A stretch of 64,000 nucleotides of DNA from positions 112,661 to 176,660 of the IMG/VR virus record IMGVR_UViG_3300028558_000001, one strand, 5' to 3'. Below are positions 13,541 to 37,654 of this stretch, piece by piece; within the stretch, counting starts at the first letter, position 1; the number at the start of each line of letters is the position of its first letter. Under the pieces are notes generated by a model, which saw nothing but the letters and a program-made list of their open reading frames with translations, was not told where the DNA came from and made no database searches. The stretch is from a virus. Made by a program: the position numbers and the translations under genes.

Positions 13541-13813
13541 TTAGTCTCCTTTCTCAAATACCCAATATTCAGAACATAGGTCACAAAGATCAAAGAAGGG
13601 AAGACGACGAATCTCTTTACAGTCTGGTAGATCAAACCAAAGGGAATGAAGGCGCTGGTATAGAGAACGATGGTCTTGATAAACTAACTCTTCGTTAGCA
13701 GCATTATCATCAAAATTAATATCAAAGCTTTTTGCATAGCCCTTTAGATGCGGCAAAATCGCCCTAGCGGCGATCCACCAATCTTCTTTGTTCTTTATGT
13801 CCATTTTCCTCAC
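13541..13813 (-). CDS. Hypothetical protein
   Basis: Tightly packed ORF. Confidence 0.5.
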   Translation of the reverse strand: MRKMDIKNKEDWWIAARAILPHLKGYAKSFDINFDDNAANEELVYQDHRSLYQRLHSLWFDLPDCKEIRRLPFFDLCDLCSEYWVFEKGD

Positions 13814-14301
13814 CCTTTGCGGTTAAATCGAATTACTTCGATTTCATTAATTCCCTCTGATTCTTGGGGATATTCATAACTATACCGCATCCGCTTCTGA
13901 ACGTCAAGTGGAATATTTTTTCCGGGGCGGGAATTTAAGTTGATTTCTAAATCTTCGCCAGAGATTTCAAAAACAACTGCCTTAATATAGTGAGTATTCC
14001 GTAACTTGTCAATTGTCTTTTTTCTAGACTTTGGGGAAAGATTCGTCCGATCTACAACAACGTTAACGCGCAAATCTACGGCGTAGTCGATACAGCTATT
14101 GAAATGACCTTCTGCGTCCTTAATGAAATCTTTAAACACGTCAGAATACGTTAGGCCATTCCGAAGGGCGATATAGTCAATATAATCATCAGAGGAAGCC
14201 TGAACATAAAAATCAGGGAGGGAAGCCCTATATGTTGACTTTCCAGAACCCGGCATTCCAATCAATAATAAAGCTACTGGTTTAACAGTTAAATCTGCCA
14301 C
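13810..14301 (-). CDS. P-loop kinase (AAA_33 / polynucleotide-kinase-like)
   Basis: GMPGSGKST, SSDD, VVDRTN. Confidence 0.8.
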   Translation of the reverse strand: MADLTVKPVALLLIGMPGSGKSTYRASLPDFYVQASSDDYIDYIALRNGLTYSDVFKDFIKDAEGHFNSCIDYAVDLRVNVVVDRTNLSPKSRKKTIDKLRNTHYIKAVVFEISGEDLEINLNSRPGKNIPLDVQKRMRYSYEYPQESEGINEIEVIRFNRKG

Positions 14302-14513
14302 TTAAAAATCCTTTCAAAGATATTTGCTTTCTCAAATAGTTTTCTTTCTGATCCACATTTACTGAATTGAAAAATAGGATTAGTCTCAACATCACAATAT
14401 CCTACAATGACATGTGATTGAGAAGTAACAATAGTATTACCACATTTATCAAATCTACCAGAGAATGGAGAAATCACTGATTTAAAACAAAACTTACATT
14501 CACGACACGTCAT
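14289..14513 (-). CDS. Cys-rich hypothetical protein
   Basis: CxxCxxC...C...C...C. Confidence 0.5.
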   Translation of the reverse strand: MTCRECKFCFKSVISPFSGRFDKCGNTIVTSQSHVIVGYCDVETNPIFQFSKCGSERKLFEKANIFERIFKWQI

Positions 14514-15055
14514 TAAACTTCTCCCAATACTTCATCAAGAATATCATCATATGTGAAAAGGCTTTGATAATTAGCCAGATTATAAACTTTAATTCCCCTC
14601 AGAGAGGCAATAGAAATAGCCATACCAGTTCCCCCGGTATCTCTAGTTCTTTGGGAATCATGCTCACAACCATCTTTCGTATAACATATAACAAATCGCG
14701 AGGGGGAAGTCAAGTCAAATCCCAATACTTGATAGACATTCCGAGCCATTAATTTCTTAGCGGCTCCTGATAATCTATCCCATACAGGATGATGTTTAGA
14801 TGCAATCTCCATAGCGCCCATAGACACTACTTGAAACTGTGATTTGTTTCCATTAAAATTCTTCCAAGGTAGAAAAATTTCCTTATTGCTACTTCCTCTT
14901 TCAAAGGCGGTATCCGCACCATCTGCGCCACCAGAACGAAGGGTAAACCCATGATGGTTTAATTCCTTGGCAATTTTAGTCATTTGTCTTAGGATACGAT
15001 CAGGAGTTTCCCTTGACCCAATACCAGTATAAGGAAGATACATATTACTCTCCAA
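14513..15055 (-). CDS. DprA/Smf-like SLOG-domain protein
   Basis: YTGIGSRETP, SGGADGAD, RN, GGT. Confidence 0.8.
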   Translation of the reverse strand: MESNMYLPYTGIGSRETPDRILRQMTKIAKELNHHGFTLRSGGADGADTAFERGSSNKEIFLPWKNFNGNKSQFQVVSMGAMEIASKHHPVWDRLSGAAKKLMARNVYQVLGFDLTSPSRFVICYTKDGCEHDSQRTRDTGGTGMAISIASLRGIKVYNLANYQSLFTYDDILDEVLGEV

Positions 15056-15187
15056 TTAAATTAGTAATAATAACTTTCCAATCATAGCCACTTGCGATTC
15101 CTTCATTAGTTACATATCCATCATAACCAATGCGTTTGGCGATAGTTAGCGCCTTCATAGCTGTTTTAAAATTACCAAATATGTACA

Positions 15188-15448
15188 TTACTTCTTTTCC
15201 TTGTATTTGATAATCATAATCAACCAAATTAGGTTAGTCCCGAACATAACAATTGCGGCGGAAGCCGACCAGTATTGGTGTAGAGTTGGATAATAGAAGC
15301 AATTCCAAAGTCCCCATATTGTAAAGAAGATTGGACTAATCCAATGAACTCCAACAATAAGCTTCTTTGAGAATGCTTCAAGTAATGTAGGAACAAGGAA
15401 TACTGCTCCAAGTAATTCTAGGGCAGCATTGATTTGATCGGAAGTCAT
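15188..15448 (-). CDS. Three-TM membrane protein (PQ-loop/SemiSWEET-like)
   Basis: Three hydrophobic helices, K...GV.W. Confidence 0.5.
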   Translation of the reverse strand: MTSDQINAALELLGAVFLVPTLLEAFSKKLIVGVHWISPIFFTIWGLWNCFYYPTLHQYWSASAAIVMFGTNLIWLIMIIKYKEKK

Positions 15449-15596
15449 TTAAGCTTCTCTATTAGAGTGAGATAATTACCATATGCCATAACGCCCATTA
15501 AAATAGTGAAAAACAGATTTAGTAGTGAATTAGCTAATAGGCAAGCAGCTAGATTAGCTCCAGCTAAAAACATATCAACCATAATCCAAAATAGTT

Positions 15597-16007
15597 CTAT
15601 AGGCATTCCACGGTTCCTTCCTCAGTTGTGTAGTAAATAGTTTTGATATTAAAAGCTGCGAGAGCGCGAGTGCATCCCTCACAAGGTTTGACCATCCCAT
15701 AACCGAATGGAGAATGCTTATTCAGTTTCTTGGCTCTGGCTATATAGATAGTGGATTTAGACAAATCAGAAACACTAATACGCTTAAGAGCCTTCACGAT
15801 AGCATCGTTCTCGGCATGAAGAATGATGGAATCAGGGTGTTTGCAAAACCTTTTCTGAAAGGGATGAGTCTTATTTTTATTACGACCAATCGAAATGATT
15901 TTGTTTTTAAAAACAATTGCAGCCGTGATACGAGCGCCGCAAACAGGCACCATTTCAGATGCCTCATCAAAAAGAAGGTCCATAACGGATTGATTATAGG
16001 AAGCCAT
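15597..16007 (-). CDS. Zinc-dependent cytidine/deoxycytidylate deaminase-family protein
   Basis: HAE and PCxxC motifs. Confidence 0.85.
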   Translation of the reverse strand: MASYNQSVMDLLFDEASEMVPVCGARITAAIVFKNKIISIGRNKNKTHPFQKRFCKHPDSIILHAENDAIVKALKRISVSDLSKSTIYIARAKKLNKHSPFGYGMVKPCEGCTRALAAFNIKTIYYTTEEGTVECL

Positions 16008-17007: not shown

Positions 17008-17688
17008 TTACTTAAATGTGACTAGTGGATACTGCTTTAGTTCTTCTCTCTTGTACCAAGGAACAGGATTGATTGCAGATGCAATAATCTTATTACCAAT
17101 ATCTGGTTCAACGAAATGATGAAATTCAAACTTATTATGAAATGTTTCTAAATCTTTAGCTGAAACCAAGGAAGGACGATGGACGACCTGAAAATAGATT
17201 TCGTGTGGATTAAGGTTAGCAGCCATGTTCTTCCCGGCTACCATTGCAGCATGAGTTGCTTGAACCATTGCATATTCTGGTGAAACTGTTTCAGTATCGA
17301 CAAAAATATAGCAATAGTGGCGGTCTAACTTGTTTACATCGTAGTTATAGAGAGCTATAACTAGCTCTCTATATTTTTCAAATTCTTCTGGTGTATCGAA
17401 GAAATCTTGTGCCGGAACACCAAAGATAACATGCTTTTCTCCGTCCTTCCAAGTAACATACTTATTAAGTATATATAAAGCATGTTCAAGAGCCTGATAT
17501 GGCTTTGCACCGCTGTTTAACTTATTTGGATTACGGATTGGCGTAAATGCCTTTGATAAGAAGATTTTAGTTAGTTCAAACTTATCTTCTGTCTTAGCGG
17601 AGAGAGCCTTGACGATGCAGTAATTAACAACATCAATAGCAACCATGTTATTGTTTAGGGTCTTCCAGATTGTCTTATAGTTTTTCAT
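17008..17688 (-). CDS. Two-domain protein with C-terminal peptidyl-tRNA hydrolase 2 (Pth2)-like domain
   Basis: YIFV...VQATHAA...F.EPDIGN...A.A..P resembles phage Pth2-like proteins; N-terminal AFTPI.N.NKL..G..PY domain. Confidence 0.6.
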   Translation of the reverse strand: MKNYKTIWKTLNNNMVAIDVVNYCIVKALSAKTEDKFELTKIFLSKAFTPIRNPNKLNSGAKPYQALEHALYILNKYVTWKDGEKHVIFGVPAQDFFDTPEEFEKYRELVIALYNYDVNKLDRHYCYIFVDTETVSPEYAMVQATHAAMVAGKNMAANLNPHEIYFQVVHRPSLVSAKDLETFHNKFEFHHFVEPDIGNKIIASAINPVPWYKREELKQYPLVTFK

Positions 17689-17742
17689 TTTAATTTTCCT
17701 TTTGATCGTTTTACATTGAGTTTATAAATTTATTCCACTTGA

Positions 17743-17796
17743 TCAGAAGGGAGGGCCGGTACTAAGCTAGAATAAGATAATTTCCTTATAATTCAT
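17743..17796 (-). promoter_or_regulatory. Putative leader peptide MNYKEIILF-(TAG)-LSTGPPF-TGA with anti-SD
   Basis: AAAGGA SD; in-frame TAG at 17767-17769; CCTTCTGATC pairs 9/10 with GATCAAAAGG over the downstream SD. Confidence 0.55.
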
Positions 17797-17801
17797 TTGC
17801 T

Positions 17802-17993
17802 TTATCCTTTCTTTACTTCGAAGGGTTTATAGGTTGTTTCGATAGTTTTTACTAACCTACCTGAACCATTACATGCTTTACATGGTTCAGTATGTGTTTC
17901 ATAGTCATTCTTATGGTAATCAACAAGCTCATCCCATTGAATGACTCCTTCACCAGAACATTTTACACATAGAATTAATTCTACTTTCTTCAT
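17802..17993 (-). CDS. DnaJ-like zinc-finger protein
   Basis: Two CxxCxGxG motifs. Confidence 0.7.
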   Translation of the reverse strand: MKKVELILCVKCSGEGVIQWDELVDYHKNDYETHTEPCKACNGSGRLVKTIETTYKPFEVKKG

Positions 17994-18102
17994 TACATCA
18001 TCACCTATTATTTATAGTAAATGAAGGTTCTTTTACGGGTGAAACCTACAATATCCCTAAAGGTTCTTTCTGTAAGAAGGTGAATCCTATAATATCCTCG
18101 TT

Positions 18103-18211
18103 TAGTTCGGAACTTGACTAAATGCAACCTATGGTTAGGATTTATCGAGTCTCTCAGCACTTTATTGTCATTCACAGGAAGTAACCATTTAATTTTCCTG
18201 TTAGTTCCGAA
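18103..18211 (-). ncRNA. Candidate structured RNA directly 3' of the suppressor tRNA
   Basis: Closing stem TTCGGAACT/AGTTCCGAA, internal ACAGGAA/TTCCTGT hairpin, no track ORF. Confidence 0.45.
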
Positions 18212-18214
18212 TTC

Positions 18215-18290
18215 TGGCGGCGGCGAGGGGGATCGAACCCCTGACCAAGAATTTTAGAGATTCCTGCTCTACCATCTGAGCTACGCCGCC
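18215..18290 (-). tRNA. Amber suppressor tRNA (anticodon CTA)
   Basis: 76-nt cloverleaf; GGCGGCG/CGCCGCC acceptor; loop CT-CTA-AA; GGTTCGATCC; G73; encoded CCA. Confidence 0.9.
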
Positions 18291-24806: not shown

Positions 24807-24883
24807 TGGCACATCATGTTGGATTCGCACCAACGTCTGCTTCCTGAGAGGGAAACTGTACTTGACTGCTATACGAATGATGT
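24807..24883 (-). tRNA. tRNA-Glu(CTC)-like, copy 2, with 8-nt anticodon loop and TGCG T-loop
   Basis: Paralogous body; GTTTC-CCTCTCAG-GAAGC; CCA. Confidence 0.6.
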
Positions 24884-29074: not shown

Positions 29075-29149
29075 TGGCTGGAGAGGAAGGATTCGAACCT
29101 CCGACCAAGAAGTTAACAGCTTCCTGCTCTACCACTGAGCTACACTCCA
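29075..29149 (-). tRNA. tRNA-Asn(GTT)
   Basis: Loop CT-GTT-AA, G73, CCA. Confidence 0.92.
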
Positions 29150-35953: not shown

Positions 35954-37654
35954 TTATCTAAGGATAGAGAATCCCTTTACTTTTTCAAATTCAATTGCAG
36001 GGAAGATGTTTTCAAGCCCTCGCGCATTGTGAGTAATAATAAAGCAATTTGAGTTGTTTGTCAACCCCTTTATTATCTCTACGAAACTTTCTACTCCCTC
36101 ACCGTCAAGTGAACCATCCAATACTTCATCGAAGATCATGAGATTCGTGGATACTGAATTTCTCATCTTGGCTACTTCTCTAAAAGCAAATAGTATTGCC
36201 AAGTCGATACGCATCTTTTCTCCCTGAGAGAATGAAGCATATGAGAATGTATCTCTATATCGTGACTTGATTGTTTCATTAAAGTTTTCGTCAAGTTCAA
36301 ACTGACATAGGAAATTGAAGCTTAATAGATAGTCATTAATTAGTTTATTAAGAACAGGAATAAACTGCTTAATAATTCTAGCTTTAATACCAGTATCTTT
36401 TAGAAGGATAGAAGCATTCCCAAGCAAATTGCGATCATTAAAAACACTATCGTATCTATCGTTAAGGACCGAAAGTTCATCTTGATATTCCTTAATTAAT
36501 TCTTCTGCATTTCCAATATTGAGATTAGTTAATTTCTTAATATCATTTTGTAATGAAATTATGTAGTCATTGGCAGATGCTATTTTAGACTTTGTAGAAG
36601 CCAATGAAGTCTTTAATCCATTAGCTGCCTTTTCCATATCAGAACAACGATTATATTCTTCTGATAAAATATCATACTTTTCAATTAGAACAGCTAGACC
36701 ATCTTCTTTAGACTCGATAGCTGCCTTCTTTGTTGTAATTTCAGAAGTCTTAAATTCAATGTCAATATCTTGTTGACACGTTGGACAGGTATCGTTCTTC
36801 TCATAGAATGATATTTCTGTTCTATAGTTCTTAATTAATGTTTCTACTTGACTTTTAACAGCAGATAGCTTTTGAAGCTTGGCATTAATCTCTTTGAAAT
36901 TTGGGATACCTACATCTTCGATCTGCCTAGTTAGAAGCTTTACTTGAAGTTGTAACTCTTCAATCTTATTTTCTGTATCATTAATTAAAGCTGTTTTCTC
37001 TTTAATAAGAATTTCATTATTGATTTTGGCGTTAGCGATATGTGTATGCTGAGACTTGATATTTGCCTGAACAACCTTACGATCTGTCTCAATAGATTCT
37101 AGTGCCGTCTTATTATCTGAAATCTTTGTCTTTAATAGAGCATTCATTACTGAGAACACTTCTAGGTCAAGAATATCTTCAATGACCGATCTACGTGGAG
37201 CAGCCTTTAATTCCATGAAAGGAACATATGAAGCTGATCCAAGAATGACTACTTGGACGAAAGTCTCATAATCTACCTTGAGGATTTGGTTCTCTAGAAT
37301 CTTTTGATAGTCTTTTTTATCGGCAGGAGGATTCTTAAGGACTCCATTCTCATACACTTCAAACTTAATAGGGGCAATTCCTCTAATAACTTTGTATTGT
37401 ATAGAACCAATATCAAACTCAAGCTCAACGACACAATCTTTCTTATTGATTGAATTAACAATCTGAGCAAGATTAATGTTTCTGAAAGGCTTCTTAAATA
37501 GAGCAAAGGTAATTGGATCGAGAAGGCCGGATGACTTACCGGCACCGTTCTTACCAGAAATAGTTGTTACCTGAGAACGATCTAATTCAATTTCAGTCCA
37601 ATTATTACCAAAACCAATAAAGTTCTTATAACGTACTTTACGAAAAATTATCAT
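35954..37654 (-). CDS. gp46: Recombination endonuclease ATPase subunit (Rad50/SbcC-like)
   Basis: GKNGAGKS, CPTC zinc hook, FSQGE, FDE..D. Confidence 0.95.
   Translation of the reverse strand: MIIFRKVRYKNFIGFGNNWTEIELDRSQVTTISGKNGAGKSSGLLDPITFALFKKPFRNINLAQIVNSINKKDCVVELEFDIGSIQYKVIRGIAPIKFEVYENGVLKNPPADKKDYQKILENQILKVDYETFVQVVILGSASYVPFMELKAAPRRSVIEDILDLEVFSVMNALLKTKISDNKTALESIETDRKVVQANIKSQHTHIANAKINNEILIKEKTALINDTENKIEELQLQVKLLTRQIEDVGIPNFKEINAKLQKLSAVKSQVETLIKNYRTEISFYEKNDTCPTCQQDIDIEFKTSEITTKKAAIESKEDGLAVLIEKYDILSEEYNRCSDMEKAANGLKTSLASTKSKIASANDYIISLQNDIKKLTNLNIGNAEELIKEYQDELSVLNDRYDSVFNDRNLLGNASILLKDTGIKARIIKQFIPVLNKLINDYLLSFNFLCQFELDENFNETIKSRYRDTFSYASFSQGEKMRIDLAILFAFREVAKMRNSVSTNLMIFDEVLDGSLDGEGVESFVEIIKGLTNNSNCFIITHNARGLENIFPAIEFEKVKGFSILR

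What the first reader, a model, noticed from the sequence alone, without database searches (positions are those of the whole stretch)
17008..18290. Candidate amber-readthrough-gated translational switch: suppressor tRNA, UAG leader peptide and Pth2-like gene
Seen: on the minus strand a leader with an AAAGGA SD reads ATG AAT TAT AAG GAA ATT ATC TTA TTC TAG CTT AGT ACC GGC CCT CCC TTC TGA (MNYKEIILF*LSTGPPF, 17796-17743). The segment CCTTCTGATC (17750-17741), about 17 nt beyond the UAG, pairs 9/10 with GATCAAAAGG, which contains the AAGG of the SD of the downstream 226-aa gene. A complete tRNA with anticodon CTA lies about 420 nt upstream on the same strand. Established: Pro-Pro-containing motifs slow elongation and occur in arrest peptides, and Pth enzymes recycle peptidyl-tRNA. 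Inference: a ribosome terminating at UAG leaves the anti-SD closed, while one reading through (suppressor tRNA charged, or RF1 limiting) pauses at GPP, opens the SD and switches on the Pth2-like protein. This would be a sensor of stop-codon suppression in a phage that otherwise uses the standard code. I know of no described example.
Basis: partly seen in the sequence, partly recalled or inferred. Interest (0 to 1): 0.9.

Follow-up and report, generated by a model that had tools for sequence, protein, structure and literature searches.

The report
Suppressor-tRNA-gated phage translation switch
A T4-like phage that uses the normal genetic code carries a tRNA that reads the stop codon UAG and a short leader that appears to let the next gene (a tRNA-hydrolase-like protein) be translated only when that tRNA overrides the stop; the design recurs in dozens of distant phages and gives their 'orphan' suppressor tRNAs a target, but it has not been tested in the lab.

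Summary
Observation confirmed, interpretation largely supported by comparison. In 25 of 26 homologous two-domain genes with upstream sequence, a short ORF has an in-frame stop, then 2-11 codons, then an x-[G/A/D]-P-P motif (mostly RGPP; RAPP, RDPP, HGPP; TGPP here) with synonymous codon variation, then an anti-SD that covaries with its own SD (0 of 100,000 permutations). Stop and neighbouring suppressor anticodon always match: 47 TAG/CUA, 2 TAA/UUA, 2 TGA/UCA. About 40 single-domain relatives, including cultured mycobacteriophages Ghost and Myrna, instead carry a stop within the first ~10 codons of the gene. XacN1, whose suppressor-tRNA targets were not found in its paper, has such an unannotated start. 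Residues 121-223 have the Pth2 fold (Z 10.9), but the catalytic Lys and Thr are not kept, so hydrolase activity is unproven. Since all three stops occur, the signal is suppression itself, not RF1 specifically. Stalling, readthrough and purpose are untested. I found no paper describing it; this scan noted the same module earlier on other DNA (49 notes, at least 37 genomes).

The parts
18215..18290 (-). Amber suppressor tRNA (anticodon CUA, G1-C72, discriminator G73, encoded CCA); proposed input of the switch
   Evidence: ARAGORN; Rfam; closest phage tRNA is tRNA-Asn at 29075; anticodon matches the leader stop in 51 of 51 informative pairings
18106..18211 (-). Structured RNA right after the tRNA 3' end, closed by a 9-bp stem; membership in the module not shown
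   Evidence: z -2.6; a similar-sized closed stem follows the tRNA in L010 only
18009..18016 (-). T4-type late promoter-like TATAAATA that would transcribe zinc-finger gene, leader and main gene
   Evidence: consensus match only
17802..17993 (-). 63-aa CxxCxGxG zinc-finger gene; its last codons supply the leader's SD; not a conserved part (also present only in L004)
   Evidence: PF00684 E 3e-5, phrog_20107
17805..17810 (-). Shine-Dalgarno of the leader ORF
   Evidence: sequence; an SD-led ATG precedes the stop in all close homologues with enough sequence
17743..17796 (-). Leader ORF: 9 codons, TAG (17769-17767), then 7 codons on readthrough, ending TGA
17749..17760 (-). TGPP codons, putative RAPP/RxPP-type ribosome arrest motif, reached only after readthrough
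   Evidence: four synonymous codons seen at Gly and at both Pro positions across homologues; R or H usual at the first position
17741..17750 (-). Anti-SD, 5' arm of the sequestering stem
17698..17707 (-). 3' arm of the stem, overlapping the SD of the main gene
17329..17688 (-). Main gene, residues 1-120: helical domain of no recognised fold; a separate upstream gene in split operons L035, L037, L040
   Evidence: model pLDDT 88; best Z 5.7, no Foldseek match; HMM E 1e-12 to 1e-4 to split genes
17008..17328 (-). Main gene, residues 121-226: Pth2-fold domain with invariant Q143, H146 and near-invariant E194, D196
   Evidence: VIA-align Z 10.9, rmsd 2.7 A, 103 aligned to 1wn2; Foldseek probability 1.0 to five Pth2 structures; 13 of 130 family members hit PF01981

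Best explanation
A readthrough-gated translational attenuator. By default the main gene's SD is held in a stem. A ribosome that starts on the leader and terminates at UAG sits too far upstream to open the stem, so the gene is OFF. When the phage's own charged tRNA-CUA outcompetes the release factor, the ribosome reads on, arrests with the first Pro in the P site of TGPP, covers the anti-SD and frees the SD, so the Pth2-fold protein is made (ON). The gene thus reports how well the cognate suppressor tRNA is working. Shown by comparison: selection on the reading frame past the stop, stop/anticodon matching, stem covariation, fixed geometry, Pth2 fold. Inferred: charging of the tRNA, readthrough, arrest, switching. 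Most likely purpose (about 45% within this explanation): a ribosome-rescue module that adds peptidyl-tRNA recycling when termination falters and suppression rises; next (about 30%), negative feedback in which the product deacylates or otherwise limits the suppressor tRNA.
For: 25 of 26 two-domain loci carry the leader, including a held-out metagenome set. First upstream stop in the motif frame is TAG in 38 of 42 and the other four match UUA or UCA tRNAs; in the other two frames TAG is first in 17 of 83. Stop/anticodon pairs 47+2+2, none mismatched; the two TGA loci lie in different supported subclades beside TAG loci. Cognate anti-SD/SD duplex -12.8 against -7.3 kcal/mol non-cognate, 0 of 100,000 permutations. 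Stop to first Pro 12-42 nt, always whole codons; first Pro to ATG 54-73 nt; SD opening cost falls from a median 11.8 (terminating footprint) to 3.3 kcal/mol (stalled), in 32-34 of 38 loci at three footprint sizes; window 3.8 to 0.7. Many leaders have two in-frame stops. A second architecture, a stop in the first codons of the single-domain gene, gives the same logic in about 40 loci against a 3.7% background. tmRNA genes lie near 14 loci. RxPP and R/HxPP are established arrest motifs with the first Pro in the P site (PMC10951233).
Against: The window's stem is among the weakest and its motif lacks the Arg that RAPP arrest normally needs; most RAPP-like motifs in ordinary proteins did not stall (PMC10987492). 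One locus has a TAG leader without Pro-Pro (L097) and one ends RGP-stop (L114), so arrest may not be required everywhere. Ungated family members exist (L009, L026, L090, Aeromonas phages 65.2 and CC2), so the protein can be useful without the gate. The Pth2 catalytic Lys and Thr are replaced. The window's genome has no permuted tmRNA or release factor (ARAGORN found no tmRNA). Loci are related, so counts overstate independent events.
Confidence: 0.8

Rival explanations
1. Same gate without arrest: any ribosome that reads through melts the stem in passing or reinitiates (translational coupling); the Pro codons are kept mainly because CCN-CCN pairs with the G-rich SD.
For: In many loci the Pro codons form part of the stem. 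L097 lacks Pro-Pro; the window has T, not R.
Against: R/H and G/A/D before the prolines are conserved with synonymous codons and mostly lie outside the stem; in the window and close relatives the first Pro codon is unpaired yet conserved; the first-Pro to ATG distance is fixed at 54-73 nt while the leader's end varies.
Confidence: 0.1
2. Opposite sign or other output: a ribosome pausing at the stop (tRNA absent or destroyed) opens the gene, or the leader controls mRNA decay or transcription termination.
For: Arrest at stop codons relieved by readthrough is known (PepNL, PMC11890864); a counter-defence enzyme would be most useful when tRNAs are damaged.
Against: A footprint at the stop leaves the stem closed in the model (11.0-11.9 kcal/mol); the stop is never closer than 12 nt to the motif; the in-gene-stop architecture can only be ON with readthrough.
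Confidence: 0.04
3. Relic or early stage of TAG recoding: the tRNA serves general readthrough and the stops are tolerated mutations.
For: Suppressor acquisition by standard-code phages has been proposed as a step to recoding (10.1101/2021.08.26.457843).
Against: TAG ends real genes here, often overlapping the next SD; all loci keep TAG as a stop; the stop is held at one position across 25-40% identity homologues and switches type with the anticodon.
Confidence: 0.04
4. Chance: a small ORF and weak hairpin in an AT-rich intergenic region near a tRNA cluster.
For: 70 SD-led short TAG ORFs in the genome; hairpin not significant alone.
Against: 25 of 26 against at most 7 of 1,326; covariation; stop/anticodon matching.
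Confidence: 0.02

Closest known systems
RAPP-type arrest peptides (ApdA, ApdP, SecM, RQH family; PMC10951233, PMC10987492)
   Same: uORF with RAPP/RGPP/HGPP/TGPP motif upstream of an SD-sequestering stem; arrest unmasks the downstream SD
   Different: Those have a signal or membrane segment and sense pulling force at Sec/YidC; here the peptide is 9-20 residues, has no such segment, and the motif lies behind a stop codon
prfB (RF2) autoregulation
   Same: An early in-frame stop makes expression depend on losing the race to the release factor (own knowledge; PMC12421855 abstract)
   Different: Bypass is a +1 frameshift, with no dedicated tRNA and no attenuator; the product is the release factor itself
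PepNL of E. coli (PMC11890864)
   Same: Leader whose arrest depends on stop-codon readthrough
   Different: Arrest is at the stop and is relieved by near-cognate host Trp-tRNA; here readthrough by a dedicated cognate tRNA leads into the arrest
Stop-codon-recoded phages with suppressor tRNAs (code 15/4; 10.1101/2021.08.26.457843)
   Same: Phage suppressor tRNA licenses expression of genes with in-frame stops
   Different: There the recoding covers late and lysis genes genome-wide; here the code is standard and one leader or gene is the only evident target
Pth2 (PF01981) and phage PTH2-like proteins (PMC7824862)
   Same: Fold, Q-x-x-H helix and the catalytic-position Asp
   Different: Catalytic Lys is Gln/Tyr/His and Thr is Glu/Gln/Lys; extra N-terminal helical domain; the review does not mention suppressor tRNAs or the early stop
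Streptomyces bldA tRNA gating of TTA genes (own knowledge)
   Same: A single tRNA gates translation of target genes
   Different: Rare sense codon, many targets, no competition with release factors, no arrest leader

Membership tests
RAPP-type arrest-peptide attenuator | RAPP-like motif conserved as protein in a uORF | tested here: met
   RGPP, RAPP, RDPP, HGPP, TGPP, CGPP with synonymous variation; TGPP and RGPP listed in PMC10987492
RAPP-type arrest-peptide attenuator | SD-sequestering stem that a stalled ribosome would open | tested here: met
   covariation and modelled opening energies; computational only
RAPP-type arrest-peptide attenuator | Ribosome arrest at the motif | not testable with these tools
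   needs toeprint or ribosome profiling
Sec/YidC monitoring substrates (SecM, ApdA, ApdP, RQH) | N-terminal localisation signal and downstream sec or yidC gene | tested here: not met
   leaders are 2-14 codons before the stop in most loci; downstream gene is Pth2-fold
Pth2 peptidyl-tRNA hydrolase | Pth2 fold | tested here: met
   Z 10.9, rmsd 2.7 A, 103 residues to 1wn2; Foldseek probability 1.0
Pth2 peptidyl-tRNA hydrolase | Catalytic Lys / Asp / Thr set (residue roles from own knowledge) | tested here: not met
   in the HMM alignment to 24bt_A the Lys column is Q/Y/H, Asp is D196, Thr column is E/Q/K; register is from sequence, not from a structural superposition
Pth2 peptidyl-tRNA hydrolase | Hydrolysis of peptidyl- or N-acyl-aminoacyl-tRNA | not testable with these tools
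   needs an enzyme assay
Stop-codon-recoded phage (code 15) | TAG used as sense across many genes | tested here: not met
   long-ORF coverage 0.416 (code 11) against 0.427 (TAG sense); 20 of 229 SD-led ORFs end in TAG
Pyrrolysine tRNA system | tRNA-Pyl structure with PylRS and biosynthesis genes | tested here: inconclusive
   ARAGORN's 'Pyl' label follows the anticodon only; the tRNA is a canonical cloverleaf closest to the phage tRNA-Asn; PylRS was not searched
Functional amber suppressor tRNA | Intact cloverleaf, U33, CUA, A37, CCA end | tested here: met
Functional amber suppressor tRNA | Aminoacylation and UAG decoding | not testable with these tools
   acceptor stems and discriminators vary across loci; amino acid unknown

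The most novel reading that the evidence does not exclude
The suppressor tRNA is a dedicated reporter molecule with no coding role: its success against the release factor is read by one leader, and the induced Pth2-fold protein is a new kind of tRNA 3'-end or ribosome-release enzyme that closes a feedback loop on that tRNA or counters a host defence aimed at termination or tRNA ends. This would be a new class of natural circuit and would explain suppressor tRNAs in standard-code phages generally.
Probability: 0.35. Interest if true: 0.95.

Novelty: new variant of a known kind. Interest (0 to 1): 0.86.

Why it matters
Suppressor tRNAs in standard-code phages have lacked targets; the XacN1 paper says so explicitly (PMC5852040). 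This module supplies one and predicts mis-annotated starts in cultured phages (Ghost gp157, Myrna gp84, XacN1 ORF364, RAS14). It adds a new input, cognate stop-codon suppression, to ribosome-arrest attenuation, with stop and anticodon evolving together across all three stops. It offers a route by which suppressor tRNAs are kept before genome-wide recoding arises. It is directly testable in M. smegmatis with cluster C phages or as a reporter in E. coli.

Tried and rejected
Pfam and PHROGs on the single protein: no match; PDB sequence search with 7 close homologues: none. N-domain fold searches were inconclusive (best Z 5.7; no viral match; atlas hits under 0.9). Leader-gene fusion by readthrough rejected: the leader's frame relative to the gene varies and in-frame stops intervene. 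Genome-wide TAG recoding rejected. Other amber-gated genes in this genome: none evident; two long in-frame extensions are ordinary junctions where the TAG overlaps the next SD. Release factor and permuted tmRNA in the genome: none. Whole-record pattern search for CUA tRNAs was ambiguous with tRNA-Arg(UCU); the Aeromonas 65.2 hit is annotated Arg and no suppressor anticodon was found in the 65.2 or CC2 tRNA regions examined. PTRHD1 likeness is a lead from memory and was not tested. Ten literature searches found no description of the module; subscription journals are mostly not covered. No complex prediction was run.

Full report
Observation. The window belongs to a complete 176,660-bp phage with direct terminal repeats and a Gp23-type capsid 62-65% identical to Stenotrophomonas phage DLP_6 and Sinorhizobium phages phiN3 and phiM12; the host is unknown. 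The code is standard: TAG ends 20 of 229 SD-led ORFs, often overlapping the next gene's SD, and reading TAG as sense barely raises coverage by long ORFs. By itself the locus is unremarkable: the stem is -7.6 kcal/mol, the leader folds no better than shuffles, and the genome has 70 SD-led short ORFs ending in TAG. Only this one is followed by an xxPP motif.

Close homologues. Six homologues at 59-79% identity all have a 6-14-codon ORF ending in TAG, followed in frame after 2, 3, 4 or 9 codons by TGPP, with different synonymous codons at all four positions (the start lies off the contig in L003). The leader's frame relative to the gene varies, so it is not a fusion. The anti-SD shows compensatory change (L002). 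In L001 a CUA tRNA lies directly upstream.

Distant homologues. A profile search gave 291 clusters. Loci came from assemblies, IMG/VR, metagenomes and GenBank, 94 after removing near-duplicates. Of 27 two-domain genes, 25 have the leader, one has no upstream sequence and one (L090) lacks both leader and nearby tRNA. The motif is usually RGPP, also RAPP, RDPP, HGPP, CGPP. The metagenome set was collected after the pattern was defined and it held. Among 1,326 other ORFs of the same loci 7 showed a TAG-led pattern, and 4 of them proved to be first genes of split operons of this module; in three split operons (L035, L037, L040) the first gene is homologous to the window protein's N-domain. Starting from the motif and walking upstream, the first stop is TAG in 38 of 42 cases, against 17 of 83 in the other frames. 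Many leaders hold two in-frame stops, which would sharpen a threshold (inference).

Stop and anticodon change together. Where both are seen, the pairs are TAG/CUA 47 times, TAA/UUA twice (L053, L057) and TGA/UCA twice (L085, L089), with no mismatch. The two TGA loci fall in different supported subclades, each beside TAG loci (124 columns, many deep forks unresolved). This is the strongest sign that the tRNA is the gate's key. It also shows the sensed quantity is not RF1-specific, because UGA is read by RF2 and UAA by both (established knowledge).

Geometry. Cognate anti-SD/SD duplexes average -12.8 kcal/mol against -7.3 for swapped pairs (0 of 100,000 permutations; loci are related, so this is not a strict probability). 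The stop lies 12-42 nt before the first Pro codon and the first Pro 54-73 nt before the start. With a ribosome modelled at the stop, opening the initiation region costs a median 11.0-11.9 kcal/mol; modelled at the first Pro, 3.3-4.2; the drop exceeds 1 kcal/mol in 32-34 of 38 loci at three footprint lengths; for the window 3.8 falls to 0.7. RAPP peptides arrest with the first Pro in the P site, and RxPP and R/HxPP were selected as strong stalling motifs (PMC10951233); TGPP is among the RAPP-like motifs used in PMC10987492, which also warns that most such motifs in ordinary proteins do not stall.

A second architecture. About 40 single-domain relatives in large phages have a stop within roughly ten codons of the ATG, typically at codon 3, usually with a CUA tRNA 0.3-2 kb downstream where sequence allows; background for such a TAG is 86 of 2,309 frames. 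Cultured examples: Ghost gp157 and Myrna gp84 are annotated from the codon just after a start-TAG, with a CUA tRNA 250 and 130 nt downstream; XacN1 ORF364 and its RAS14 homologue have an SD-led Met-Lys-TAG start upstream of the annotated one. The XacN1 paper reports two CUA tRNAs and no identifiable target (PMC5852040). The ungated homologues of Aeromonas phages 65.2 and CC2 have no early stop and no suppressor anticodon in the tRNA regions examined. This architecture can only be ON with readthrough, which fixes the sign of the logic.

The product. Residues 121-223 have the Pth2 fold (Z 10.9, rmsd 2.7 A over 103 residues). Q143 and H146 are invariant and E194 and D196 nearly so, but the columns matching the Pth2 catalytic Lys and Thr hold Q/Y/H and E/Q/K. 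It works like a tRNA-end enzyme by fold and context but fails strict Pth2 membership. The N-domain is well modelled and unassigned. tmRNA genes lie near 14 loci, though not in this genome, which points to ribosome rescue; a jumbo-phage review proposed that role for phage PTH2 without noting the gate (PMC7824862).

Mechanism and verdict. Most likely the gene is translated only when the cognate suppressor tRNA outcompetes termination at the leader stop and the ribosome arrests on TGPP, freeing the SD (0.8). Selection, matching and geometry are shown; charging, readthrough, arrest and purpose are inferred. The purpose is open between rescue when termination falters and feedback on the tRNA. Each part has a precedent (arrest attenuators, prfB, PepNL, recoded phages), so I class it as a new variant, but I found no paper on the module in ten searches of open literature. 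This scan noted the same module on other DNA before; those notes are unchecked and were not counted as evidence, though one prompted the stop/anticodon test. Interest 0.86.

Noticed in passing
window 18106-18211 (-): Structured RNA directly 3' of the suppressor tRNA with a 9-bp closing stem (z -2.6); L010 has a similar-sized closed stem after its tRNA, with no clear sequence likeness.
   Followed up: partly
window 18215-18290 and 29075-29149 (-): The suppressor tRNA is most like the phage's own tRNA-Asn (alignment score 54 of 76, next best 47), suggesting its origin.
   Followed up: partly
window 24807-24883 (-): ARAGORN tRNA with an undetermined two-base anticodon, not matched by Rfam at the gathering score; a similar call lies 430 nt upstream of the gene in L025.
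   Followed up: no
L075:2104 (Ghost, before gp156) and L082:3994: Further ATG-few codons-TAG starts before neighbouring genes; possible second amber-gated genes.
   Followed up: no
L077:1445-2300 (XacN1), L078:1445-2300 (RAS14), L054: About 280-aa fusions of a ~160-aa N-terminal domain to the Pth2-fold domain, with an unannotated early-TAG start; GenBank starts look misplaced.
   Followed up: partly
L010:9300-9599, L012, L013, L016, L025, L085: Permuted (two-piece) tmRNA genes within about 1 kb of the module.
   Followed up: partly
L053:10598-10688, L057:11501-11592, L058:10308-10399: Suppressor tRNAs with long variable arms (two ochre, one amber on the opposite strand).
   Followed up: no
L009, L026, L090, L097: Members nested in the gated clade that lack the leader or its Pro-Pro motif; probable secondary losses, on partial contigs.
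   Followed up: partly
window 13810-16007 (-): Downstream neighbours include a deaminase (PF00383), an AAA_33/polynucleotide-kinase-like P-loop protein and a DprA-like nucleotide-binding protein; the deaminase is also downstream in L005.
   Followed up: no
G000 36900-37445 (+) and 117111-117563 (-), genome coordinates: Two TAG-ending genes run in frame into the next gene (93 and 106 codons), so suppression would make fusions; they look like ordinary SD overlaps.
   Followed up: partly
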